NCBI GenBank assembly: GCA_000004985.1
Contig: GG738859.1
From: Naegleria gruberi
Taxonomy: Eukaryota
Strand: one strand, 5' to 3'
Length of the DNA: 64,000 bases
The stretch's first letter is position 1; every line of letters starts with the position of its first letter. This document shows positions 45,333 to 64,000 of this stretch, piece after piece. The translations under genes were made by a program, and so were the position numbers. The notes under the pieces are model-generated. The model searched no databases. It was not told the origin of the DNA and worked only from the letters and a program-made list of their open reading frames with translations.

Positions 45333-47972
45333 ATGAAAGAAACGAAACAAGTCATTCCAATTGTCAAATCAAAAGATGAACGAGAGGTCGATGAGGAAAA
45401 TCCAAAGGATGACACATCAAGTGATCTTTTTATTCAAGAAGATAAGAGAAAGATTGCATTCTTTGGTTCAATTAAAATGTGGCTAATTTTGATAATTTCC
45501 ATAATTGTATTGTTGACAGTTTTTATTCTGTCAGCGATTTGGTTGAGCAGTTTTATGCCATCAGTGGTTTCGTATAGTTCAGAATTGAGAGATTTTGAGT
45601 TTAACAATATTATTTCATTTGTAGAACAGTTGATTAGAGAAGTGTCAATGTCAAGTGATAATGCCAAACATTTAATGTTGAAATCACTTGATTTTTCGAA
45701 TAGAGATCAGATAGAAGTGTTGATTTATCAGTTTTATAAGCAACAAAAGGGTTACATGAAAGGAGTTGTTGTCACTTGCAATATTGGTGACAATGAAGGA
45801 AGGTAAATACTTTACAACAGTTTTAATCTTTACATTCTTAAAGACAATATGGAGTTATGGACTGGGGAGGCAAGCAAGCCTTATTCAACATCACCACAAA
45901 AGATCAACAACTTTATTATTGTAATAATTTTGATGAATTGATTATTGTAATAGAAGTTCAATTCCTGACATTCAATTAGGATTTTTTGACTTGACTGTTA
46001 TGATTACAACAGGAAATACTCATCCAAACAAAGCAACCATGTCTCTAAGTTTCATAGATGCATCACAACCACAGTATACTTTCATTACCATGTATAATTC
46101 AATGCCATTAACTCAACCAGATCCAAAAGGAAACAAATTTAAATATTATTTGGCCATTGACATGTCTGCTGAGACTATTTCTCAATATTTAGCGAATGCA
46201 ACTTCTAAAATAAGTGGTTCTAAGAGTTTTATTATTGAAATGGCAACTCAATATATGATTGCAAGTAAGTTTAACAATGAACAAGGTAAAAAGTTTACAA
46301 TAATTGAAAGATGACAATTCCAATGCAAGAGTTGCAGTTGTTAATTCAGATGGATCTGTCACAAGACAAACCTATCTCAAAATTGATAATGATGAAAGAG
46401 TTTCGTCAATTGCTCGTATATTAGAAAAAAATTATGGAACTAGTTTGAATATTAAATGCAATACCAAGTATTTGATTACATCTGCAACTGATTACATTTC
46501 AGTTTATAGATTATGCACAGATACTGATGTTGATTGGTAAGTAACCTAAACGAGCTAGAAATGTAATAATTATTCGAAATAGGTTGTTTGTGTTGGCAGT
46601 TCCTCAATGGAATTATATTAGTTCAATTGTTATTGCTGTAATTTGTGCTACTCTTGGTGCCACATTAATTGTCACAACAGGTGTAGCCATTTCCATCTTC
46701 ATTTCAGTCAGATTAGTGAAACCATTTTACAACTTGATTGATTTATTCGAAAGTGTTTCTCACATGGATTTGGATAATTTAATAATTCATGATTCCAAAT
46801 TTACAGAAGTTAAACATTTACAAACTCATTTCAAAACCATGACAGATAGAATCAAACTTTACAGAGCTTTCATTCCATCACATTTACTTTCTCAATTAGA
46901 TCAAGGAGGTGGCAACAATGAAAACAATGGAGGTCAAGATTCAAAGAAGAAACACGATGCTTCAATGGATTCCTCTCATAAATCCTCAAAAGAATCTGCT
47001 TGGAGTAGAAGTCATGCAGGAGATAGTTCAAGTTCACATCGAAGATATTCGAATGATTTGGATATTTTCTCACTTCATTTGGATCGAAAGAAATTATCCA
47101 TTGTTGCAATTCATATTGAAGGGTTGAATAGATTATTCTCTGAAATATCAGCAGGAGACTGTGTTGATTTATTGAAAGATTTCTTTGATCATTTGGGATT
47201 AGTTTGTAGAACAAGTAATGGTTATCTGGGAAATTTTGAAAATGATTTAATTTCAATTTCATTCAATGCAAGTTCAAATCAATCGAAACATTCAGAAAAA
47301 GCAGCTTCAGCATGTGTTCAATTAATGGAAAAGTTGAACACAACCAAATCAAAGAAATGGCCAAATCAATTGAAAAAGAAACCTCACTTGATTGAAATTG
47401 TTAAATTTAGATTTGCAATTTGTGTTCAAGAATCATTGTGTGGAAATTTGGGATCTAATGATTTTAAGAATTTCACAGTTATTTCAAGTGCCAAATTCAA
47501 TTTGGAATGCATGTTGGATGTTGCATCAAAATTGAATTTGAATATTGTATTATCTGATAGAGTATTTGCAAATTTAGAAGAACATTATCAAATGAGATAT
47601 GTTTATACGAAAGAATTAATTCCAGATTCACATTATTCATCTCCATTTATTCAACACAAAGAAAATGAAAGAGCACCAATTGAACCAACACATATTTATG
47701 AATTGGGTGAAAGCTTACATATTGGAATGGATGGTAAGTTTACAATATTTAATAATATTTCGAAATATTTACAATTTAACAATTTATTAGAATGGATGTA
47801 TGAATTACAAGAAAAGGAAAAGAAAGCAAAATGGACCAAATACAATCAAGCTTGCAAACTCTTCTTCTCAAATCAATTCGAAGAAGCTAAGGAACTCTTC
47901 AAAGAATATCATGAACTCAACAATGATGTGGCGGCTGAATTACTAATGCACAAATGTTCCAAAATTAATTAA
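45333..47972 (+). CDS. receptor-type cyclase-homology-domain protein, copy 1 (5 exons; carries a -1 frameshift in exon 2, so a possible pseudogene or assembly error)
   Basis: Exons 45333..45802, 45844..46264, 46311..46536, 46583..47733, 47791..47972, all with GTAAAT/GTAAGT donors. Topology: short cytoplasmic N-terminus, TM1 (IAFFGSIKMWLILIISIIVLLTVFILSAIWLSSF), ~330-aa extracellular domain, TM2 (LFVLAVPQWNYISSIVIAVICATLGATLIVTTGVAISIFISV), Ser-rich linker, CHD (SIVAIHIEGLNRLF..GYLGNFENDLISISF..FRFAICVQESLCGNLG..FNLECMLD). Relative to copy 2, one C is missing near 45937 (GAATTGATTATTGT vs GAACTTGATTATTGT), giving an in-frame TAG at 45977..45979. The last intron (57 nt) is in-frame and stop-free, so the track ORF reads through it. 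Confidence 0.6.
47031..47727. repeat. near-100% identical inverted-repeat tract (partner at ~53073..53763): putative gene-conversion segment within the diverged paralog pair
   Basis: Direct reading: the reverse complements of 53701..53760 and 53101..53160 are base-for-base identical to the corresponding copy-1 sequence, including synonymous sites. The encoded 231 aa (SSHRRYSNDLD..ELGESLH) are identical. Outside the tract the copies differ (extracellular domain ~70-75% aa identity). The left boundary has a small indel (copy 1 has extra GGAGATAGTTCA). Confidence 0.8.
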
Positions 47973-48303: not shown

Positions 48304-51300
48304 TTATTTTTGGAGAAATATTCTAAAATTGCTAAGAACTTCTTCTAAGTTACCTCCAGTTTCATTAATCATTTTACTACCCTTCGCATAATTCTGCTCG
48401 ATATCCAATCCATACATGTATATTACTCCTAACTTTTGCTTTGCATCTATATCACTATCGTCAAATTCAAGAGCCCTTGTATACCACACAAAAGCTTCCT
48501 TGAAATCATTCTTAAATGCATGAAAATCTGCAAGAATCGTCATGCTGTCTTTAACTTGCATTTCTATTGCCTTATTGATCCAATACAAGAATAGTGCGTC
48601 GTCTTGATCCACTCCCTCGCCATGCATATATGAAATAGCAACATTTTTCATTGAATTACTGTCCCCAATAAGTGCAGCTTGTAAGCTGTATTGGAAAGAT
48701 TTTTGAAGATTATCTGAGTCGAAATAAATGGTTGATAATTTTGTCATGCAATATATATTTCCCAATTCGGCTCCTTTGGTGTAGTAAGGGATGGGATCAC
48801 CATTCGAATTGAAATAGTAATAATCTCCTAGTTTCATAAATGCTTCATCGTTGTTGTGAAGAGAAGATCTTTCGAATAATGAAAGAGCTTTTTTCAAGTC
48901 TTTCTCATATCCGATTTCAACACTTCCAATTTCGTACAATTCGCCCAAGTAGTTGAGAGCAGGACCATAGTCGTATCTAGCTGCTAGCTCTATTAATTTT
49001 AGTCCAAACCTTTCGTTTGATAAAACCTTGGACTTTCCAAAATCGAAGCAAGCTTTCGGATCAAAAAGAATTTTGTTCCTTACTTGCTTCACCTCTTGTA
49101 GTACAGTAATAAGAGTCTTTCCAAAAAGTAAATTAATTCCCAATTCTAATTGTAAGCCTTCTTGAGCAGCACAAAACAATTCTTGTTTCAAAAACTCTTC
49201 ATAATTTGGCATTTCAGAGTTGATCTCATAAACAGAACAGGAAAAGTCAATTTTCAGTTTCTTTGGTACCAATTCTCGATTAGTAAATTGTGTTTCATCA
49301 AACCCAGATATAAACAGAACATGCTTGTTGGATATCACGGATTCAATTGCAGTTTTCATTCCGCTTTCTGATAAATTTTGAATGGTTGTTTTAAGATTGA
49401 ACAAAACTAGCTCTTTTGATTGGATCGTAAAAAATTCGTACATTAAATTGAAAAACTCTGCAAGAAACTGAGCTCTATGTTTGATAGTAAGTGCTCTCCC
49501 AATAAATTCGCTTATTTTCTTCATGATTTTTTCTCCAAAATTATTGGAAGTATTTGCAAGTAATAGGTCGAAAATCTCCAATCTAATACTTTCCAAAATG
49601 TGATCCTTATCATTTTGTACAGATATGCGTATATTGTGCTCTTTCAGTTCCAGAGTTTTAGTTATGCAATCAACCATTTGTTGATATACTTCAGAAGCAA
49701 GAGAAGAGCTTTTTTTCAAGGCACCTCTTTTCGATTGATGGTAGTGAGGATATCCAGGGAAATTATCTATAAATCTCAAATCCTCTTCTCTAGTTGCTAC
49801 AGAAATTACACCATTCTTTGGAGAGCCCACTGCATGATTGACAATTTCACAAAGTCTTCTCATTTCCTTATTCCAATTTTCATCATTTGTCCAGTTAGAT
49901 CCATGATGGTCTACGTAGGCATGTCTTACTCCAACCCAATCTTTAAAAACATCTGGTTCAAATGGACGAATATCTTCTTGTTTGATTTCTTCATCAAACA
50001 AGCCAGGTTCAAATATTTTGACATTATCTACAATTAAATCATCCCAGCATACAAAGAATTGATCTCCGTCCAAATCTGATCCTGATATCATATTTGGTAC
50101 AGGTCTTTTACCTTTTGATGAAAAAACAATAACATCACACAAGTGAGATAATTTGGGATAGTAAACTGCTTTGATTTTTCTCAAGTCACCTCTATGAAGA
50201 CAAGGTTCTTTTGTCAATACAATTTCTTTCTGTAGAACTTGTTTGTGACTTGGATTTTTAAATGAAGAAATCTGAACAAATACCTCTCCTTCATTGAGGA
50301 CTTCATAAGGATCTACCACTCCATATAATCTTCTTGAATTTGAGAATGGAATTTTCAATGATGTTATGAGACTCTTGTATGGACCAGCCAGAAATGCAAA
50401 TCCTTTGTTTTTTGTGGTTGAGAGAACATTAAGGGAAATCAAATTATTATCTTTCATATATTGCCTCGCAATAACTTCAGTATCTTCATGAACGTATTTG
50501 TCTAAAGAGTTTTGAACGTGAGCAGATGCCATCTCTAATACTCTCTTTCTCACTTCTCCGTTAGAATCACATCCACTCAGTAAGTGCATGATTGTAGAGT
50601 TGACTCTTGTTAATTCGCATGGACTGGAATGACCAACTATTTGAAGAGTGCTAAAACTTTGGTCAACTTTTTCATTAGTTTTACATTTGACCATTGATTC
50701 TCTCAGTACAATGTGAACTCTATACTTTTCAAATGTTTCAGTATTAACAACAAGCATTCCTTTTGCTCCTCTAAATCTAATTTGAAACGCTGAAGGAATG
50801 TAAGAGCTATCAGAAAACAAATCAAAACCACGTTGCTCATCATATCCAATTTCATCTTCCTCTTGATCAGTTTTTATCAAAACTCTATTTTCGGCATTCA
50901 AGATGTGTTTGTAAACTTTCTTAGCCATGTCTGGAGAAATAAATCCACAACCATCTGTAAAGTTGAAACCATCTCTTTCAATATCTGGAATTACTGTGAA
51001 ATATTGAATGATTTCTGTTGGGATCACTGGTGTATTATAAAGAGCCAATCTAATTCTCTGCTTTAATATATTTTTCGAATCATACAGAGTTGGATTAAGC
51101 TCTTTAGGAATTGCCCATTCTTTAATTTGTTCAACAGTTGAGAGCTTTCTTGTTGGATCCTGCGTATTTGCTAATTGAGGGCAACAATACACATACTTAT
51201 ATGAATGCATTCCACTAGTATTTTGGCAAAGAATATTAAATTGATATTTTCCAAATTTGAAAGGTAATGGATTGATATTGTCTTTAAATGCTTTCTTCCA

Positions 51301-52071
51301 AGTTATCAACTCATTTCTAAATCTTGATTGATGTTTCAATTTCTTGATGTACTCCTTATCAAACACATCATTAATAATATCAGTATCCTGTTTCAGAATT
51401 TTCATTTTGGTCAACAGGAAGAAAAAATCGATTTCTTCAAAGCTAAATGGATTGAGAATAGAACCATTCATTTGTTCATCTCGAACCATTCTTTGAGATT
51501 TCAATCCCATTCTCGAGAATATAAACGATACATTCAATATGCAATCACCTCCAAACTCTTGTCTAAATCTTCCAATAACAAAATTGTCTTTTGGTGAGCT
51601 TTTAAATATAACACATAGCTCTGCTTTCTCAGCAGCAATAAAAGAATAGAACGTAATTGACCTCATTCTACTCAATTTCAATCCTGCCCTTCCATCAGAA
51701 TACGATTTATCATCTTTTCCTTCCAAAAACCAGTTGTTGATACTTTCCAAACCTTCGGGGTAGGTAACTATTACCTTCTTACTAACTTTCTTCATTAATT
51801 CGAATCTCTGATCGAAGGACATACCTGAATAACCTTCCCCTCTGAGATGACTCAATCTGGCAAGACAAATACCAGCATCATGTTCATTCCGAATCAATGG
51901 AAGTGTTTTATTTCGAGAAAGATGATAACAGTAGAAGAGATTATCTATTAATTGCTCGGTGGACGAATTTGCTGTTGTTTGATTGTTAGAATCATTCTGT
52001 TTGAAGGGCATTTCATGGTTTTTGTTAATGGAGAAAAGTTTGGGAAGGTTTGCAGTGAATTGTGTGAACAT
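48304..52071 (-). CDS. cellular RNA-dependent RNA polymerase (RDR/QDE-1 family) fused to C-terminal Sel1-like repeats, 1255 aa, single exon
   Basis: ATG 52071..52069, TAA 48306..48304. RdRP catalytic region ..PCLHRGDLRKIKAVYYPKLSHLCDVIVFSSKGKRPVPNMISGSDLDGDQFFVCWDD (DxDGD motif; cf. plant RDR ..VVFPQKG.RPHPNECSGSDLDGD.YFVSWD) at ~50050..50095. The last ~230 aa are Sel1/TPR-like repeats (..AISYMHGEGVDQDDALFLYWINKAIEMQ..; ..LGVIYMYGLDIEQNYAKG..). Confidence 0.85.
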   Translation of the reverse strand: MFTQFTANLPKLFSINKNHEMPFKQNDSNNQTTANSSTEQLIDNLFYCYHLSRNKTLPLIRNEHDAGICLARLSHLRGEGYSGMSFDQRFELMKKVSKKVIVTYPEGLESINNWFLEGKDDKSYSDGRAGLKLSRMRSITFYSFIAAEKAELCVIFKSSPKDNFVIGRFRQEFGGDCILNVSFIFSRMGLKSQRMVRDEQMNGSILNPFSFEEIDFFFLLTKMKILKQDTDIINDVFDKEYIKKLKHQSRFRNELITWKKAFKDNINPLPFKFGKYQFNILCQNTSGMHSYKYVYCCPQLANTQDPTRKLSTVEQIKEWAIPKELNPTLYDSKNILKQRIRLALYNTPVIPTEIIQYFTVIPDIERDGFNFTDGCGFISPDMAKKVYKHILNAENRVLIKTDQEEDEIGYDEQRGFDLFSDSSYIPSAFQIRFRGAKGMLVVNTETFEKYRVHIVLRESMVKCKTNEKVDQSFSTLQIVGHSSPCELTRVNSTIMHLLSGCDSNGEVRKRVLEMASAHVQNSLDKYVHEDTEVIARQYMKDNNLISLNVLSTTKNKGFAFLAGPYKSLITSLKIPFSNSRRLYGVVDPYEVLNEGEVFVQISSFKNPSHKQVLQKEIVLTKEPCLHRGDLRKIKAVYYPKLSHLCDVIVFSSKGKRPVPNMISGSDLDGDQFFVCWDDLIVDNVKIFEPGLFDEEIKQEDIRPFEPDVFKDWVGVRHAYVDHHGSNWTNDENWNKEMRRLCEIVNHAVGSPKNGVISVATREEDLRFIDNFPGYPHYHQSKRGALKKSSSLASEVYQQMVDCITKTLELKEHNIRISVQNDKDHILESIRLEIFDLLLANTSNNFGEKIMKKISEFIGRALTIKHRAQFLAEFFNLMYEFFTIQSKELVLFNLKTTIQNLSESGMKTAIESVISNKHVLFISGFDETQFTNRELVPKKLKIDFSCSVYEINSEMPNYEEFLKQELFCAAQEGLQLELGINLLFGKTLITVLQEVKQVRNKILFDPKACFDFGKSKVLSNERFGLKLIELAARYDYGPALNYLGELYEIGSVEIGYEKDLKKALSLFERSSLHNNDEAFMKLGDYYYFNSNGDPIPYYTKGAELGNIYCMTKLSTIYFDSDNLQKSFQYSLQAALIGDSNSMKNVAISYMHGEGVDQDDALFLYWINKAIEMQVKDSMTILADFHAFKNDFKEAFVWYTRALEFDDSDIDAKQKLGVIYMYGLDIEQNYAKGSKMINETGGNLEEVLSNFRIFLQK

Positions 52072-52806: not shown

Positions 52807-55490
52807 CTACAATTCACTAATAGGTGTTGTAGTTGAACATTTTTTAATCATCAATTCAGCTGCCACATCATTGTTGAGTTCATGAAATTCCTGGAATAAT
52901 TCTCTAGCTTCTTCGAATTGATTTGAGAAGAAGAGTTTGCAAGCTTGATTGTATTTGGTCCATTTTGCTTTCTTTTCCTTTTCTTGTAATTCATACATCC
53001 ATTCTAATAAATAGTTAAATTATAAATATTTCGACAAATTATTAAATATTGTAAACTTACCATCCATTCCAACATGTAAGCTTTCACCCAATTCATAAAT
53101 ATGTGTTGGTTCAATTGGTGCTCTTTCATTTTCTTTGTGTTGAATAAATGGAGATGAATAATGTGAATCTGGAATTAATTCTTTCGTATAAACATATCTC
53201 ATTTGATAATGTTCTTCTAAATTTGCAAATACTCTATCAGATAATACAATATTCAAATTCAATTTTGATGCAACATCCAACATGCATTCCAAATTGAATT
53301 TGGCACTTGAAATAACTGTGAAATTCTTAAAATCATTCGATCCTAAATTTCCACACAATGATTCTTGAACACAAATTGCAAATCTAAATTTAACAATTTC
53401 AATCAAGTGAGGTTTCTTTTTCAATTGATTTGGCCATTTCTTTGATTTGGTTGTGTTCAACTTTTCCATTAATTGAACACATGCTGAAGCTGCTTTTTCT
53501 GAATGTTTTGATTGATTTGAACTTGCATTGAATGAAATTGAAATTAAATCATTTTCAAAATTTCCCAGATAACCATTACTTGTTCTACAAACTAATCCCA
53601 AATGATCAAAGAAATCTTTCAATAAATCAACACAGTCTCCTGCTGATATTTCAGAGAATAATCTATTCAATCCTTCAATATGAATTGCAACAATGGATAA
53701 TTTCTTTCGATCCAAATGAAGTGAGAAAATATCCAAATCATTCGAATATCTTCGATGTGAACTAGAGGCATGACTTCTACTCAAGCTAGATTGTTTGGAG
53801 TCTAATCTCGAAGATCTCTGAGAGGATTTATGAGAGGAAGCCATAGAAATGGAATCATTTTCATGAGCTTTCTTTTTGGCGTCAACATGATCTCCTCCTT
53901 GATCTAATTGAGAAAGTAAATGTGATGGAATGAATGCTCTGTAAAGTTTGATTCTATCTGTCATGGTTTTGAAATGATTTTGTAAATGTTTCACTTCTGT
54001 AAATTTGGAATCATTAATTACTAAATTATCCAAATCCATATGAGAAACACTTTCGAATAAATCAATCAAGTTGTAAAATGGTTTCACTAGTTTGACTGAA
54101 ATAATGACAGATGTTATAACACCTGCAGAAATTATAATACATGCGCCTAGAGTAGCACAAATTACAGCAATAACAATTGAACTAATATAATTCCATTGAG
54201 GAACTGCCAACACAAACAACCTATTTCGAATAATTATTATAGAGTTCGAAATTGATTTGCTAACTTACCAATCAACATCAGTATCTGTGCATAATCTATA
54301 AACTGAAATGTAATCAGTTGCAGATGTAATTAATGATTTGTTTCCACATCCAATAGTATCCAATTCTGTTCCCAATTCCGAAGCCAATACCTTGGCGATT
54401 GACGAAACTCTTTCATCATTATCAATTTTGAGATAGGTTTGTCTTGTGACAGATCCATCTGAATTAACAACTGCAACTCTTGCATTAGAATTGTCATCTT
54501 TCAATTATTGTAAACTTTTTACCTTTTTCATTGTTAAACTTACTTGCAATAATGTATTGAGTTGCCATTTCAATAATAAAACTCTTTGAACCACTCAATT
54601 TCAACGTGACCTGTGCCAAATATTGAGAAATAGTCTCAGCAGACAAATCTGTTCCTAAGTAATATTTAAATTTGTTTCCTTTCGAATCTGGTTGAGGTAA
54701 CGCAATAGAATTAACCATTGTAATGAAAGTATACTGTGGTTGTGATGCATCTATGAAACTATTAGTGATGGTTGGTTTTCCTGGATGTGCATTTCCAGCA
54801 TTAATCAAAATTGTCAAATCAAAAAATCCTAATTGAATATCTGGAGTTGAACTTCTATTACAATAATCAAGTTCATCAAAGTTATTACAATAATAAAGTT
54901 GTTGATCTTTGGTGGTGATGTTGAATAATGTAGGTTTTCCTCCCCAGTCCATAATTCCATATTGTCTTAAGAAATTAATGAAATATTGTAAAGATTAAAA
55001 CTTTTGTAAAGTACTTACGTACTTACCTTCCTTCATTGTCACCAATGTGATTTGTAACAACTAAACCTTTAAGATAGGTCCACTGTTGTTTCAAAAACTG
55101 ATAAATCAACACTTCTATCTGATCTCTATTCGAAAAGTCAAGTGTTTTCATCATTAAATGTTTACCAGTTTCACTTGTCATTTTTACTTCTCTAATTGTT
55201 TGTTTGACAAATGCAATAATATTATCAAATTCAAAATCTCTTAGTTCCTTGCTATATTCAACAACTGAAGGAATGAAACTACTCAACCAAATTGCTGACA
55301 GGATAAAAACTGTCAATAATACAATTACAGAAATAATTAGAATCAACCACATTTTAATTGAACCAAAGAATGCAATCTTTCTTGCGTCTTGTTGAAAATT
55401 ATCGCTTGAAGTATCTTCGATAGGTTGAGTATTATCTTCTGTTGCATCGTGCTGGGATCTGACAGGAATGACTTGTGTCGTTTCTTTCAT
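52807..55490 (-). CDS. receptor-type cyclase-homology-domain protein, copy 2 (intact paralog of the gene at 45333..47972, inverted), 5 exons, ~823 aa
   Basis: Exons complement(55027..55490), (54544..54965), (54269..54497), (53061..54220), (52807..53003). Introns of 61, 46, 48 and 57 nt at positions homologous to copy 1. Start chosen at the conserved AAAATCATAAAAAAATGAAAGAAACG context; an upstream in-frame ATG at 55544 is an alternative. Same 2-TM + extracellular domain + CHD architecture as copy 1. The C-terminal ~231 aa are identical to copy 1. Confidence 0.7.
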
Positions 55491-59230: not shown

Positions 59231-60953
59231 AATCCAAGTAAATGGATACTTGATTCAATTCTTGTATGATGACAAGACCCAATATCTTCAATGAATCTTT
59301 CTCAGATTGCACCTATCACCAATAGGAATGTGTTCATGCTTCATACTTGTTTGATATTTACAAACTGAATGAGCTGGTGCGTATTCTATATATTGAAAAG
59401 TTACTTTTTGACAGATTGTTATTATTATCAAGTTATTTTCTATTCAGAATATCTAAAATTAATACAATATGTACAATAGTGTGATTAAACGTATCTGGTA
59501 AAGTTATAGGATGATTGGATGTACTTTCACTGAGATGAAGTGTTCACTATGGTATACCTAGGATTGACATTGAACATTTACTGATTAATTTTATGAAAGT
59601 AGTTTGAAATGTTTCTAAACTATTGTAGATGTATTTAATTGATATATAGACTATGTGGTATCAATTCTAGACTTATTATATGTAAAGGTTTTGGAAACGT
59701 GTTGTTTTGATTTGTTTCTTCTGTGGCTCCATGGTCTTTATGATCTGATATAGGGTTATTAAGCGCCGTTTGGGTATTTTGTTGGTTTTTTTAGTAAAGT
59801 TTTAAAAAAAGTATATAGTTCTTATCTAGTTATCGAGTTGTGGTGTAAATGTGTTGTTTTCAAGCTATTCGAAAGTAGTAACGATTTCGATATTCCGTTA
59901 CTTTGCGTCACTTTGCGGACGGACTTATATTCAATCAATTTGGTTGTCATTCATATTGATGCGTAGAATTTTTGAGATTATTTTTGAATGTACGTTATTT
60001 TTATCTACGCATGAATGAAAAGTACAACAATGATCAAGAGGAATTGAGTCATGAGTATGATACTTTCTCAGATTGTTCTACGCATCAAGAGTATTCGATT
60101 CAGGATTCTATTCATATATGATATTTGTTATAAATATATTGAATTGGATGAGATGGAGTGCCATCTTGTTGTTAAAAGTTGAGTCGACATTAAGGTATTC
60201 AGTAAATTGATACCACATGACTAATTAGAGTGATTATATGCCATTATATCAATTTCTTTGAAAACAGACTTGCTTCTGGACCTTTCAGATTTCTAGCCAC
60301 ATTGACAGATCACCATGTACTATCTACTGGATGCATTTCTTGAAATAAAAGTATATATTTTGAATAAAGTCCACTTTATTTGAGATGAACTACATGATAA
60401 TAAAGTTTATTTTGAGATTGTCAACTTTTTCTATAGTGACATCCTTAATTGTCTTAATTGACTCAAAGAGGCCAAGGAGAGATTTCAAATCATAAAATAA
60501 ATGATATTTTCGAGATTTAATAATGATTTACAATCGATTGATATGTATTTTGCTGATTGAGGATGTAGTTCTCTTATTGAATATTGCCCTGTCCTTCAAA
60601 GTCAACCTTGATAAATCACTCCTTACCTTACTATATGATGGAATGTTCACTAGAACGTCTGAAAACTGAAATATATACATTATTAGAGATTTAGAACATG
60701 ATTATATGATTTAATTTGAGAGTGGTAACTTGGCCGAACAACTTGTACATTATAGAGAGAGTTGACTTGGGTTTGGTACCTGGAACCTCTTGGGTTTGGG
60801 AACAGTCTTTTCAACATGAATTCATTGATTATTCTATATCTACTCATCATCTCAAATAAATTAATTATTATTTTTCTGGTCTGGTAATTGTGAAGATACT
60901 GTAGTTGTAAGTTTTACTTTTCATTGTGTATTTATAAAGATAATATATTTCTA

Positions 60954-62838
60954 NNNNNNNNNNNNNNNNNNNNNNNNNNNNNNNNNNNNNNNNNNNNNNN
61001 NNNNNNNNNNNNNNNNNNNNNNNNNNNNNNNNNNNNNNNNNNNNNNNNNNNNNNNNNNNNNNNNNNNNNNNNNNNNNNNNNNNNNNNNNNNNNNNNNNNN
61101 NNNNNNNNNNNNNNNNNNNNNNNNNNNNNNNNNNNNNNNNNNNNNNNNNNNNNNNNNNNNNNNNNNNNNNNNNNNNNNNNNNNNNNNNNNNNNNNNNNNN
61201 NNNNNNNNNNNNNNNNNNNNNNNNNNNNNNNNNNNNNNNNNNNNNNNNNNNNNNNNNNNNNNNNNNNNNNNNNNNNNNNNNNNNNNNNNNNNNNNNNNNN
61301 NNNNNNNNNNNNNNNNNNNNNNNNNNNNNNNNNNNNNNNNNNNNNNNNNNNNNNNNNNNNNNNNNNNNNNNNNNNNNNNNNNNNNNNNNNNNNNNNNNNN
61401 NNNNNNNNNNNNNNNNNNNNNNNNNNNNNNNNNNNNNNNNNNNNNNNNNNNNNNNNNNNNNNNNNNNNNNNNNNNNNNNNNNNNNNNNNNNNNNNNNNNN
61501 NNNNNNNNNNNNNNNNNNNNNNNNNNNNNNNNNNNNNNNNNNNNNNNNNNNNNNNNNNNNNNNNNNNNNNNNNNNNNNNNNNNNNNNNNNNNNNNNNNNN
61601 NNNNNNNNNNNNNNNNNNNNNNNNNNNNNNNNNNNNNNNNNNNNNNNNNNNNNNNNNNNNNNNNNNNNNNNNNNNNNNNNNNNNNNNNNNNNNNNNNNNN
61701 NNNNNNNNNNNNNNNNNNNNNNNNNNNNNNNNNNNNNNNNNNNNNNNNNNNNNNNNNNNNNNNNNNNNNNNNNNNNNNNNNNNNNNNNNNNNNNNNNNNN
61801 NNNNNNNNNNNNNNNNNNNNNNNNNNNNNNNNNNNNNNNNNNNNNNNNNNNNNNNNNNNNNNNNNNNNNNNNNNNNNNNNNNNNNNNNNNNNNNNNNNNN
61901 NNNNNNNNNNNNNNNNNNNNNNNNNNNNNNNNNNNNNNNNNNNNNNNNNNNNNNNNNNNNNNNNNNNNNNNNNNNNNNNNNNNNNNNNNNNNNNNNNNNN
62001 NNNNNNNNNNNNNNNNNNNNNNNNNNNNNNNNNNNNNNNNNNNNNNNNNNNNNNNNNNNNNNNNNNNNNNNNNNNNNNNNNNNNNNNNNNNNNNNNNNNN
62101 NNNNNNNNNNNNNNNNNNNNNNNNNNNNNNNNNNNNNNNNNNNNNNNNNNNNNNNNNNNNNNNNNNNNNNNNNNNNNNNNNNNNNNNNNNNNNNNNNNNN
62201 NNNNNNNNNNNNNNNNNNNNNNNNNNNNNNNNNNNNNNNNNNNNNNNNNNNNNNNNNNNNNNNNNNNNNNNNNNNNNNNNNNNNNNNNNNNNNNNNNNNN
62301 NNNNNNNNNNNNNNNNNNNNNNNNNNNNNNNNNNNNNNNNNNNNNNNNNNNNNNNNNNNNNNNNNNNNNNNNNNNNNNNNNNNNNNNNNNNNNNNNNNNN
62401 NNNNNNNNNNNNNNNNNNNNNNNNNNNNNNNNNNNNNNNNNNNNNNNNNNNNNNNNNNNNNNNNNNNNNNNNNNNNNNNNNNNNNNNNNNNNNNNNNNNN
62501 NNNNNNNNNNNNNNNNNNNNNNNNNNNNNNNNNNNNNNNNNNNNNNNNNNNNNNNNNNNNNNNNNNNNNNNNNNNNNNNNNNNNNNNNNNNNNNNNNNNN
62601 NNNNNNNNNNNNNNNNNNNNNNNNNNNNNNNNNNNNNNNNNNNNNNNNNNNNNNNNNNNNNNNNNNNNNNNNNNNNNNNNNNNNNNNNNNNNNNNNNNNN
62701 NNNNNNNNNNNNNNNNNNNNNNNNNNNNNNNNNNNNNNNNNNNNNNNNNNNNNNNNNNNNNNNNNNNNNNNNNNNNNNNNNNNNNNNNNNNNNNNNNNNN
62801 NNNNNNNNNNNNNNNNNNNNNNNNNNNNNNNNNNNNNN
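60954..62838. other. assembly gap (1,885 N)
   Basis: Uninterrupted run of n. The 641-668-aa all-X ORFs in the track across it are artefacts. Confidence 0.99.
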
Positions 62839-63649
62839 ATTGTGAACACAATGGTATCAATAGTTATATGATTCATGATAGTTTAAAATTGAGTTGGTCA
62901 TCTAAGGATAGGTCATTAAGGTTTGAATGAATTGATATGAAATTCAATACCAATTATTGAAATACCATGACTAACTGATCTATATATGATGCTATAATTG
63001 AAAGATTTTAAAATTAATATGATTTGATTATCTTGATATTCATTATTCCCATGATTACACTCCTGACATGTTGAATGATATCAAATTGTCATGAAACTGA
63101 TACAGTAGTGTTCATTCACCTTTTGTAAGGTACTGTATCAATTTCATAATGATCTGTAAAGTAGATGTCATTGTCACATCCCTGTAGGTATCAAGTGGAT
63201 CTGCCATGTACCATGTATGATATGGATGAATATCAAAATGATATTACTGTATTTCATTATCATGTGTAGATGTATTGGAAGTGAATTGAAGTGGTATAGA
63301 TTTCTATCTTCAATGTTAGTATAGGTCAGTTGACAAGTTGAATAGCAAATATCCTGAAATGATACCAAAGTATTTGAAATTGATATATATTGTTATTAAC
63401 ATGATTTATAAGGTGATATATTGATTTGAAATGAATTTGAAATGTTTTCATTGATATTTTAATTGTCTAATCTATTATATGAAATTAACTTATATAAGAC
63501 ATGATAATGATGTAATATTATGTTATATTATGATTATATATTCAATTTGGAGTATATTGATATATAATATATTGATTTATAATGAGTATTTATTGAGATA
63601 ATTAATTAAGATGAATAAAAGTCAAAATGTTGGGTCTGACCTTAGTCGT

Positions 63650-64000
63650 GGGTTTGGGTTTGGGTTTGGGTTTGGGTTTGGGTTTGGGTTTGGGTTTGGG
63701 TTTGGGTTTGGGTTTGGGTTTGGGTTTGGGTTTGGGTTTGGGTTTGGGTTTGGGTTTGGGTTTGGGTTTGGGTTTGGGTTTGGGTTTGGGTTTGGGTTTG
63801 GGTTTGGGTTTGGGTTTGGGTTTGGGTTTGGGTTTGGGTTTGGGTTTGGGTTTGGGTTTGGGTTTGGGTTTGGGTTTGGGTTTGGGTTTGGGTTTGGGTT
63901 TGGGTTTGGGTTTGGGTTTGGGTTTGGGTTTGGGTTTGGGTTTGGGTTTGGGTTTGGGTTTGGGTTTGGGTTTGGGTTCGGGTTTGGGTTTGGGTTTGGA
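63650..64000 (+). repeat. telomeric repeat (GGGTTT)n, ~58 units, running to the window end (chromosome terminus; G-rich strand 5'->3' toward the end)
   Basis: Perfect hexamer array from 63650. One variant unit GGGTTC at ~63974..63979. Preceded by AT-rich unique sequence and the satellite. Confidence 0.9.

What the first reader, a model, noticed from the sequence alone, without database searches (positions are those of the whole stretch)
48304..52071. RdRP (DLDGD catalytic motif) fused to C-terminal Sel1-like repeats: unusual domain architecture
The N-terminal ~1000 aa carry the hallmark of cellular RNA-dependent RNA polymerases (..VIVFSSKGKRPVPNMISGSDLDGDQFFVCWDD). The last ~230 aa are Sel1/TPR-like repeats, an adaptor module not present in the classical RDR/QDE-1/EGO-1 architectures I know of. 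The gene is intron-less, sits inside the inverted duplication and is subtelomeric. A Sel1 platform could tether the polymerase to a partner or membrane. This may be a lineage-specific small-RNA amplification factor.
Basis: partly seen in the sequence, partly recalled or inferred. Interest (0 to 1): 0.7.

Follow-up and report, generated by a model that had tools for sequence, protein, structure and literature searches.

The report
Naegleria RNA-copying polymerase with Sel1 tail
This is an intact Naegleria gruberi gene for a cellular RNA-dependent RNA polymerase that carries about six Sel1-type protein-binding repeats at its C-terminus, a combination found here only in Naegleria-type amoebae, already present in public protein databases, and with no description found in the papers searched.

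Summary
Window 48304-52071 (-) is one uninterrupted 1255-codon ORF. Pfam finds RdRP (PF05183, E=3.6e-81, aa 256-791) with an intact DLDGD loop (aa 666-670), and Sel1 (PF08238, above the curated cut-off). Solved Sel1 proteins match aa 1030-1237 (E=3e-19).

The organism is Naegleria gruberi. The gene is already in NCBI/UniProt (100% identical from Met21) with both domains precomputed.

The fusion is real and old. Two N. gruberi paralogues and one environmental orthologue keep the same collinear order. Sel1-less relatives stop exactly where Sel1 begins. Of 231 RdRP-bearing proteins examined, including the best hits from 1.84 billion representatives, only these four carry Sel1.

The wider heterolobosean RdRP clade carries different C-terminal modules:
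- Sel1
- Sel1+TLDc
- probable LRR
- TPR+MYND (Willaertia)
- none (N. lovaniensis)

Other lineages attach SF1 helicases instead.

Best reading: an active RNAi-type polymerase whose solenoid recruits a protein partner in cis. The function, the transcript structure and any small RNAs remain untested.

I found no paper describing the architecture. It is a new variant of a known kind, of moderate interest.

The parts
48304..52071 (-). Complete ORF of the RdRP-Sel1 protein (1255 codons plus stop). The NCBI model starts at Met21 (window 52011).
51307..52071 (-). N-terminal region, aa 1-255. No Pfam family, but conserved in all Naegleria-type RdRPs. No RRM of the plant RDR type.
   Evidence: phmmer E 1e-12 to 1e-22 against P0002-P0006 and P0121
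49699..51306 (-). RdRP catalytic domain (PF05183), aa 256-791.
   Evidence: E=3.6e-81; Arabidopsis RDR2 E=3.8e-25; model core pLDDT >90; Foldseek to maize RDR2 E=6e-24 and to QDE-1 E=5e-21
50062..50076 (-). Catalytic DbDGD loop: DLDGD, aa 666-670.
   Evidence: these are invariant columns D437/D439/G440/D441 of alignment A1
48985..49698 (-). Post-catalytic region, aa 792-1029, shared by all clade members including the Sel1-less ones. It contains a small beta-alpha-beta-alpha-beta-beta unit at about aa 887-951 (window about 49219-49413) with no family assignment.
   Evidence: alignment; the same secondary structure in two models, pLDDT 60-90; no Pfam hit
48352..48984 (-). Sel1-like repeat solenoid, aa 1030-1240. 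I read about six helix-turn-helix units from the sequence and the model.
   Evidence: PF08238, 36.9 bits, aa 1037-1073; Sel1 proteins matching aa 1030-1237; all-helical; confident only at aa ~1109-1179; Foldseek to Sel1 proteins, E about 1e-3
45433..47959 (.). Left arm of the inverted duplication flanking the gene. It encodes a class III adenylate-cyclase-like ORF (46584-47972, +).
52835..55396 (.). Right arm of the inverted duplication. It encodes the paralogous cyclase-like ORF (53020-54219, -).
63649..64000 (+). Telomere-like hexamer array (TGGGTT/TTTGGG), 58.5 copies, at the end of the window.

Best explanation
The gene encodes a catalytically competent cellular RNA-dependent RNA polymerase of the QDE-1/RDR2 two-barrel type from Naegleria gruberi. 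The polymerase body (conserved N-terminal region, catalytic domain, conserved post-catalytic region; aa ~20-1029) would copy single-stranded RNA into complementary RNA. That feeds the Dicer/Argonaute silencing machinery that Naegleria encodes. The C-terminal solenoid of about six Sel1-like repeats (aa 1030-1240) would act as a built-in protein-binding adaptor. It would bring the polymerase to a partner or template source in cis. In other organisms that job is done by separate subunits or by fused helicases. Shown here: the domain identities, the intact active site, the continuity and age of the fusion, and its restriction to this lineage. Inferred: polymerase activity, the link to RNAi, and the adaptor role of the repeats.
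For: Domains and active site. The protein keeps all 21 residues that are invariant across 42 RdRPs from plants, fungi, animals, oomycetes and amoebae, including D666/D668/G669/D670. A real fusion: a single open frame with homogeneous codon usage across segments (codon-usage cosine 0.886 for polymerase part against both linker and Sel1). The NCBI model is collinear. The same order RdRP-linker-Sel1 is found in P0002 (34% identical, aligned over 98% of the query) and in P0003/P0004. The P0003/P0004 orthologue pair aligns in one 1369-aa segment across the junction. Its Sel1 region is 59% identical and gap-free over 175 aa, against 80% for the RdRP core, 66% for the linker and 54% for the N-terminus, so the module is under constraint. 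Sel1-less relatives (N. lovaniensis P0005) end exactly at the Sel1 boundary, with no Sel1 coding sequence nearby. Rarity: 4 of 120 word-index hits and 4 of 231 RdRP-bearing proteins carry Sel1. Next-nearest long RdRPs carry SF1 helicases instead. RNAi context: Dicer-like and Argonaute homologues are reported for Naegleria (N. gruberi DCR3 in PMC4791657; N. gruberi Dicer scheme in PMC10328071; N. fowleri Dicer/Argonaute candidates in PMC13315211). Adaptor role: this rests on established knowledge that Sel1-like repeats are protein-protein interaction scaffolds. An analogous enzyme with a C-terminal Sel1-like domain (eEF2 kinase, 8gm4) appears among the weak fold matches, below the significance threshold (E=1.3e-2).
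Against: No transcript, small-RNA, protein or activity data were available, so the function is inferred from homology alone. The Sel1 Pfam score is modest (36.9 bits, one repeat passing on its own). Roughly half of the solenoid is modelled with low confidence. No close orthologue of this particular paralogue covers the Sel1 part; the only closer relative, P0128, is a 151-aa fragment at 67% identity within the catalytic domain. Constraint on this copy's repeats is therefore not shown directly. The gene sits 11.6 kb from a telomere in a palindromic duplication, a setting where fast-evolving or dispensable paralogues are common. No partner is identified.
Confidence: 0.55

Rival explanations
1. 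The C-terminal repeats are not a passive adaptor. They are a variable 'receptor' module. Heterolobosean RdRPs would be a family of sensors in which one conserved polymerase body is coupled to interchangeable solenoids (Sel1, Sel1+TLDc, LRR, TPR+MYND). Each solenoid would direct RNA copying to a different target, for example viral or transposon ribonucleoproteins.
For: Within one clade with 100% bootstrap support, and its Willaertia relative, the C-terminal module differs. Q and P0002 have Sel1; P0003/P0004 have Sel1+TLDc. P0006 has a probable RI-type LRR (LRR_6, 80.9 bits in the ORF that continues its tail after a one-base frame change). Willaertia P0123 and metagenomic P0127 have TPR plus two MYND fingers. 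N. lovaniensis has none. The Willaertia TPR region has no detectable similarity to the Sel1 region, which is consistent with independent acquisitions.
Against: Nothing shows that the repeats recognise non-self. No NTPase switch or other signalling domain typical of repeat-based immune sensors is present. Diversity of add-on modules is equally expected for ordinary partner recruitment in paralogous pathways. The LRR case depends on an assumed frameshift in a metagenome contig.
Confidence: 0.15
2. The Sel1 module acts within the enzyme, as a regulatory or oligomerisation domain, rather than recruiting another protein.
For: QDE-1 crystallises as a homodimer (established knowledge; 2j7n chains A and B appear). 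In eEF2 kinase the C-terminal Sel1-like repeats pack against and activate the catalytic domain (established knowledge; 8gm4 appears).
Against: The structure models give no confident contact between the solenoid and the core; low-confidence segments surround the junction (aa ~972-1090). Close relatives function, presumably, without any Sel1 module (P0005).
Confidence: 0.15
3. A dispensable or decaying subtelomeric paralogue: an intact-looking ORF with no current role.
For: The gene lies 11.6 kb from a telomere array, between the arms of an inverted duplication. It is only 33-38% identical to every other family member. No full-length orthologue was found in 1.84 billion representatives.
Against: A 3.8-kb ORF in a 33% G+C genome, with 81 and 129 stops in the alternative frames, cannot stay open by chance. 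All family-invariant residues are retained. A 67%-identical environmental fragment (P0128) indicates that orthologues exist.
Confidence: 0.1
4. The fusion is an annotation artefact: two adjacent genes (a polymerase and a Sel1 protein) that merely share a frame.
For: No transcript evidence was available here. In-frame Met codons occur in the linker (aa 799, 850, 877, 905, 954).
Against: There is no stop codon anywhere between the domains. The region between them is a conserved, structured part of the polymerase, not a spacer. The same uninterrupted order is kept in three other proteins that diverged to 33-37% identity, and in a 66%-identical orthologue pair.
Confidence: 0.05

Closest known systems
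Plant RDR1/RDR2/RDR6 (for example Arabidopsis and maize RDR2; PDB 7eu0, 7roz, 7w82)
   Same: Same Pfam family. Same DLDGD form of the catalytic loop. Best sequence and fold matches among solved structures.
   Different: Plant enzymes have an N-terminal RRM and the PF26252/PF24823/PF26250/PF26253 accessory domains, none of which is detected here. They have no Sel1 or TPR tail. Their partners (Pol IV, SGS3) are separate proteins (established knowledge).
Neurospora QDE-1 (PDB 2j7n, 7y7p-t)
   Same: Two-barrel polymerase fold and catalytic loop.
   Different: Only about 17-19% identical. No repeat module. Sequence similarity is confined to aa 568-684.
RdRP-helicase fusions (oomycete DEAD-box type P0081/P0097; SF1 AAA_11/AAA_12 type P0021, P0139, P0148, P0154, P0158, P0161)
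   Same: The same principle: a partner function fused to the polymerase in one chain.
   Different: There the add-on is an enzyme, a helicase. Here it is a non-catalytic alpha-solenoid.
N. gruberi paralogues P0002 (RdRP+Sel1/TPR) and P0003 (RdRP+Sel1+TLDc); environmental P0004
   Same: Same clade and same collinear order of N-terminal region, RdRP, linker and Sel1.
   Different: Only 33-37% identical. P0002 has more and stronger Sel1 units (122 bits, five repeats). P0003 and P0004 add a TLDc domain.
Willaertia magna KAL9647075.1 (P0123) and metagenomic P0127: RdRP+TPR+zf-MYND
   Same: Heterolobosean RdRP whose match also covers the N-terminal region of the query, with a C-terminal alpha-solenoid.
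   Different: It has TPR plus MYND fingers rather than Sel1. There is no detectable similarity between the two repeat regions.
Sel1-like repeat adaptors (SEL1L/Hrd3, Legionella LpnE/LceB, Helicobacter Hcp, the eEF2 kinase C-terminal domain)
   Same: Same repeat family by sequence and fold. eEF2 kinase is a precedent for an enzyme with a C-terminal Sel1-like domain.
   Different: None of these is linked to a nucleic-acid polymerase.

Membership tests
Eukaryotic cellular RdRP (Pfam PF05183; RDR/QDE-1/EGO-1) | Match to the family profile above the curated threshold | tested here: met
   274 bits against a cut-off of 23.8, aa 256-791, profile positions 53-574 of 582
Eukaryotic cellular RdRP (Pfam PF05183; RDR/QDE-1/EGO-1) | Catalytic DbDGD loop with three aspartates | tested here: met
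   DLDGD at aa 666-670; these columns are invariant in 42 sequences
Eukaryotic cellular RdRP (Pfam PF05183; RDR/QDE-1/EGO-1) | Two-barrel (double-psi beta-barrel) polymerase fold as in QDE-1 and RDR2 | tested here: met
   AlphaFold2 core pLDDT >90. Foldseek matches to maize RDR2 E=6.1e-24, QDE-1 5.3e-21 and Arabidopsis RDR2 1e-20. The TM-score is only about 0.4 because of the extra domains.
Eukaryotic cellular RdRP (Pfam PF05183; RDR/QDE-1/EGO-1) | RNA-templated RNA synthesis | not testable with these tools
   Needs recombinant enzyme assays
Plant-type RDR1/2/6 architecture | N-terminal RRM and the PF26252/PF24823/PF26250/PF26253 accessory domains | tested here: not met
   No such Pfam hits at E<=1. 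They are present in the plant hits.
RDR-alpha clade (DLDGD-type RDRs of plants, animals and fungi) | Phylogenetic placement inside the clade | tested here: inconclusive
   The neighbour-joining tree puts the Naegleria clade next to bdelloid-rotifer and animal RdRPs with only 39-44% bootstrap support. The DLDGD form of the motif is consistent with this clade.
Sel1-like repeat (SLR) family (Pfam PF08238) | Match to the repeat profile above the curated threshold | tested here: met
   36.9 bits against a cut-off of 30.7, best unit aa 1037-1073
Sel1-like repeat (SLR) family (Pfam PF08238) | Tandem array of helix-turn-helix units forming a solenoid | tested here: met
   Solved SLR proteins align over aa 1030-1237 (6ok3 E=2.7e-19, 4bwr, 8sxq, 6ork, 6deh). 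The region is all-helical in both models. Only aa ~1109-1179 reach pLDDT >=75. Foldseek to SLR structures is weak (E about 1e-3).
RNAi amplification machinery | Co-occurrence with Dicer and Argonaute in the same genome | not tested
   Taken from papers only: N. gruberi Dicer-like proteins (PMC4791657, PMC10328071) and N. fowleri Dicer/Argonaute candidates (PMC13315211)
RNAi amplification machinery | RdRP-dependent secondary small RNAs | not testable with these tools
   Needs small-RNA sequencing of wild type against a knock-down

The most novel reading that the evidence does not exclude
Heterolobosean amoebae have turned the RNAi polymerase into a modular family. One conserved polymerase body is joined to interchangeable C-terminal solenoid modules (Sel1, Sel1+TLDc, LRR, TPR+MYND). 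These act as target-specific receptors and direct RNA copying to particular viral, transposon or cellular ribonucleoproteins. The design principle would resemble that of repeat-based innate immune sensors.
Probability: 0.12. Interest if true: 0.7.

Novelty: new variant of a known kind. Interest (0 to 1): 0.35.

Why it matters
How cellular RdRPs choose their templates is a central open question in RNA silencing. In the model systems it depends on separate partner proteins that had to be found genetically. A polymerase that carries its adaptor in the same chain, in a lineage far from plants, fungi and animals, would help. So would sister copies carrying different adaptors. Together they give a direct handle: the repeat module can be used as bait to find what the enzyme is recruited to, and modules can be swapped between paralogues to test specificity. 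It also adds a protist data point on RNAi in Naegleria, where gene-silencing tools are wanted for work on the pathogenic relative N. fowleri. The immediate significance is limited. The sequence is already public and the function is entirely inferred.

Tried and rejected
- A single-sequence phmmer search with this gene's Sel1 region as a census tool missed P0003 and P0004, which Pfam calls Sel1-positive. I replaced it with a profile built from the Sel1-rich hits.
- The ranking of the exhaustive search was confounded. Long multi-repeat Sel1 proteins reach scores comparable to RdRPs by summing repeats, so the top 150 had to be rescored by domain.
- Origin of the Sel1 module: the best Sel1-only hits are generic bacterial or metagenomic multi-repeat proteins (Akkermansiaceae SEL1-like protein, JGI 'TPR repeat protein'), which gives no clue.
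- The second structure job (aa 792-1255 with six sequences) gave pLDDT 55. That is too low for a fold search, so the small alpha/beta unit in the linker stays unassigned. Pfam on the linker found nothing.
- I tested whether N. lovaniensis P0005 is a truncated model hiding Sel1 repeats downstream. tblastn found none.
- Five full-text literature searches found no paper linking Naegleria or heterolobosean RdRPs to Sel1 or TPR. One review I recalled (Burroughs, Ando and Aravind 2014) could not be retrieved under the PMC id I tried, so a prior description there cannot be excluded.
- The exact 1255-aa sequence is not in the protein collection; only the 1235-aa model is.
- No transcript evidence could be obtained with these tools.
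Full report
**1. What is in the sequence**

Window 48304..52071 on the minus strand is a single ORF of 1255 codons. The other two frames of that strand contain 81 and 129 stops. In a region of about 34% G+C the open frame cannot be a chance event.

**2. Domains**

- Pfam assigns RdRP (PF05183) at E=3.6e-81 (274 bits against a curated cut-off of 23.8) to aa 256-791. It assigns Sel1 (PF08238) at 36.9 bits (cut-off 30.7), with the best unit at aa 1037-1073.
- By sequence, aa 423-786 match Arabidopsis RDR2 (E=3.8e-25). Maize RDR2 matches a similar stretch (aa 421-683). QDE-1 matches aa 568-684.
- The C-terminus (aa 1030-1237) matches crystallised Sel1-repeat proteins: 6ok3 at 2.7e-19, 4bwr at 1.8e-13, 8sxq at 1.6e-11.
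- An AlphaFold2 model of aa 230-1255 (mean pLDDT 72, pTM 0.68) has a polymerase core above pLDDT 90 and an all-helical tail.
- Foldseek returns maize and Arabidopsis RDR2 and QDE-1 at E=1e-24 to 1e-18, followed by Sel1 proteins at about 1e-3.
- In a 42-sequence alignment spanning plants, fungi, animals, oomycetes and amoebae, 21 columns are invariant, including the catalytic aspartates. This protein has all of them.
- From the sequence and the modelled helices I read about six Sel1-type units between aa 1037 and 1240. That count is my own reading.

**3. Organism and database status**

The best hit is an NCBI/UniProt protein named 'RNA dependent RNA polymerase [Naegleria gruberi]'. It is 1235 aa, is 100% identical from Met21 onwards, and has PF05183 and PF08238 precomputed. 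The gene is therefore already public and automatically annotated with both domains. The 1255-aa version with the 20 extra N-terminal codons is not in the collection.

**4. Is the fusion real?**

- There is no stop between the domains.
- Codon usage is homogeneous. GC3 is 0.24-0.34 in all four segments, and the cosine of codon usage is 0.886 for the polymerase part against both the linker and Sel1.
- The 240 residues between the Pfam RdRP domain and Sel1 are not a spacer. They are conserved in all clade members, including those without Sel1, and they contain a structured alpha/beta unit in both models.
- The collinear order is kept in N. gruberi P0002 (34% identity over 98% of the query; five Sel1 units, 122 bits) and in P0003 and P0004 (RdRP, Sel1, TLDc).
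- P0003 and P0004 are orthologues (66% identity). They align in one 1369-residue segment across the junction. Their Sel1 region is gap-free and 59% identical, comparable to the N-terminal region (54%) and the linker (66%). The module therefore evolves as constrained coding sequence.
- N. lovaniensis P0005 ends exactly where Sel1 begins in the others, and no Sel1 coding potential exists within 8 kb. Both states are genuine.
- What is missing is transcript evidence, which these tools cannot supply.

**5. Census**

- Among 120 word-index homologues, only P0001-P0004 carry Sel1.
- An exhaustive HMMER search of 1.84 billion representatives with aa 56-1255 gave 17,849 hits, a mixture of RdRPs and Sel1-only proteins.
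- I rescored the 265 proteins then held with separate RdRP and Sel1 queries, the latter as a profile. This found 231 RdRP-bearing proteins, of which only the same four have Sel1.
- This census is strong for near relatives and partial for the whole family.
- The closest relatives outside the Naegleria clade are Willaertia magna KAL9647075.1 (1870 aa) and a metagenomic protein (1898 aa). Both have RdRP + TPR + two MYND fingers. Their repeat region has no detectable similarity to this Sel1 region.
- Six further long RdRPs were scanned. Five carry C-terminal SF1 helicases, and P0156 shows RdRP only.

**6. Phylogeny**

A neighbour-joining tree of 456 core columns with 200 bootstraps recovers the Naegleria-type RdRPs as a clade at 100%. 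P0002 (Sel1) branches first, then this gene (Sel1). Next come P0003/P0004 (Sel1+TLDc) together with the Sel1-less copies. That order suggests one old gain followed by loss, but the internal nodes have only 50-70% support. The sister position of the bdelloid-rotifer RdRPs is also weak (41%).

**7. Variation in the C-terminal module**

In metagenome contig L002 the RdRP P0006 ends with one RI-type leucine-rich unit ('LTSLCMTFNKIGNEGV'). A different frame continues 'KYLSQGRFDNLNELVLSGNYIGVVGARYL...' into an ORF that scores 80.9 bits on LRR_6. A single-base frame change would make an RdRP-LRR fusion. Heterolobosean RdRPs thus carry Sel1, Sel1+TLDc, probably LRR, TPR+MYND, or nothing.

**8. Genomic setting**

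- The gene lies in the 4875-bp unique spacer between two inverted arms, 45433-47959 and 52835-55396. The arms are 97% complementary next to the spacer and 81-92% further out.
- Each arm encodes a class III adenylate-cyclase-like protein (CyaB 3r5g, E=2.8e-7). Pfam found nothing for them.
- A (TGGGTT) array of 58.5 copies ends the window. It lies 11.6 kb from the gene, across a 1.9-kb run of N.

**9. Mechanism**

The shown facts are the following:
- an intact RdRP body;
- a constrained, ancient, lineage-restricted Sel1 tail;
- no hydrophobic segment (maximum Kyte-Doolittle 1.37).

Papers report Dicer-like and Argonaute homologues in Naegleria. From established knowledge, cellular RdRPs act in complexes that decide their templates, and Sel1-like repeats are protein-interaction scaffolds. 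On that basis I infer that the tail recruits a partner in cis (confidence about 0.55).

Alternatives:
- a variable receptor role (0.15);
- an intramolecular regulatory or dimerisation role (0.15);
- a dispensable subtelomeric paralogue (0.10);
- two genes misread as one (0.05).

**10. Novelty and verdict**

Five full-text searches found no paper that describes an RdRP-Sel1 architecture or discusses Naegleria RdRPs. One review that might mention it could not be retrieved.

The enzyme family and the repeat family are both well known, and the sequence is public. What is new is the combination and the modular pattern across the clade. I rate it a new variant of a known kind, with interest 0.35.

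Noticed in passing
window 45433-47959 and 52835-55396: Inverted duplication whose arms are most alike next to the central spacer (97% over 932 nt) and less alike further out (81-92%). Each arm encodes a class III adenylate-cyclase-like protein (best solved match CyaB 3r5g, E=2.8e-7; no Pfam hit at E<=0.01). The right-arm ORF is shorter (399 against 462 aa), so one copy may have an intron or a disruption.
   Followed up: partly
window 63649-64000 and 60955-62849: A hexamer array (TGGGTT, read as TTTGGG) of 58.5 copies at 99% match ends the window, as expected of a chromosome end. A 1.9-kb run of N lies between it and the genes, so the distance to the telomere rests on scaffolding. The ORFs listed at 60924-62930 run through the N stretch and are artefacts.
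   Followed up: partly
L002 5941-6941 (ENA ERZ27315067 k141_282444): RdRP P0006 ends in one RI-type LRR unit. The ORF that overlaps its stop by 4 nt is a strong LRR_6 protein (80.9 bits). A one-base frame change would give an RdRP-LRR fusion.
   Followed up: partly
L001 4762-11357 (N. lovaniensis PYSW02000051.1): Two RdRP genes lie head to head, 41 bp apart (1065 aa on the minus strand, 1118 aa on the plus strand). They are each other's closest relatives (100% bootstrap) and both lack Sel1. Protein-kinase genes flank them.
   Followed up: partly
P0123 (Willaertia magna KAL9647075.1), P0127, P0145: The nearest RdRPs outside the Naegleria clade carry C-terminal TPR repeats and MYND zinc fingers. 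I have not seen this RdRP architecture described either.
   Followed up: partly
P0007-P0010 (Rotaria, Adineta): After the heterolobosean proteins, the best named hits in the word-index search are bdelloid-rotifer RdRPs (HMMER E 1e-33 to 1e-36), ahead of plants and fungi. In the tree they are sister to the Naegleria clade, at only 41% support.
   Followed up: no
window about 49219-49413 (aa ~887-951): A small beta-alpha-beta-alpha-beta-beta unit sits in the post-catalytic region. It was predicted with the same topology in two independent models (pLDDT 60-90) and is conserved across the clade. It has no Pfam match and no fold assignment.
   Followed up: partly
window 52011-52071: The ORF starts 20 codons upstream of the Met used in the NCBI model, so the true start codon is undetermined.
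   Followed up: no
P0003 aa 1503-1666; P0004 aa 1556-1722: One paralogue lineage adds a TLDc domain (56.6 and 73.9 bits) after the Sel1 repeats. I have not seen this domain linked to RNA silencing.
   Followed up: no
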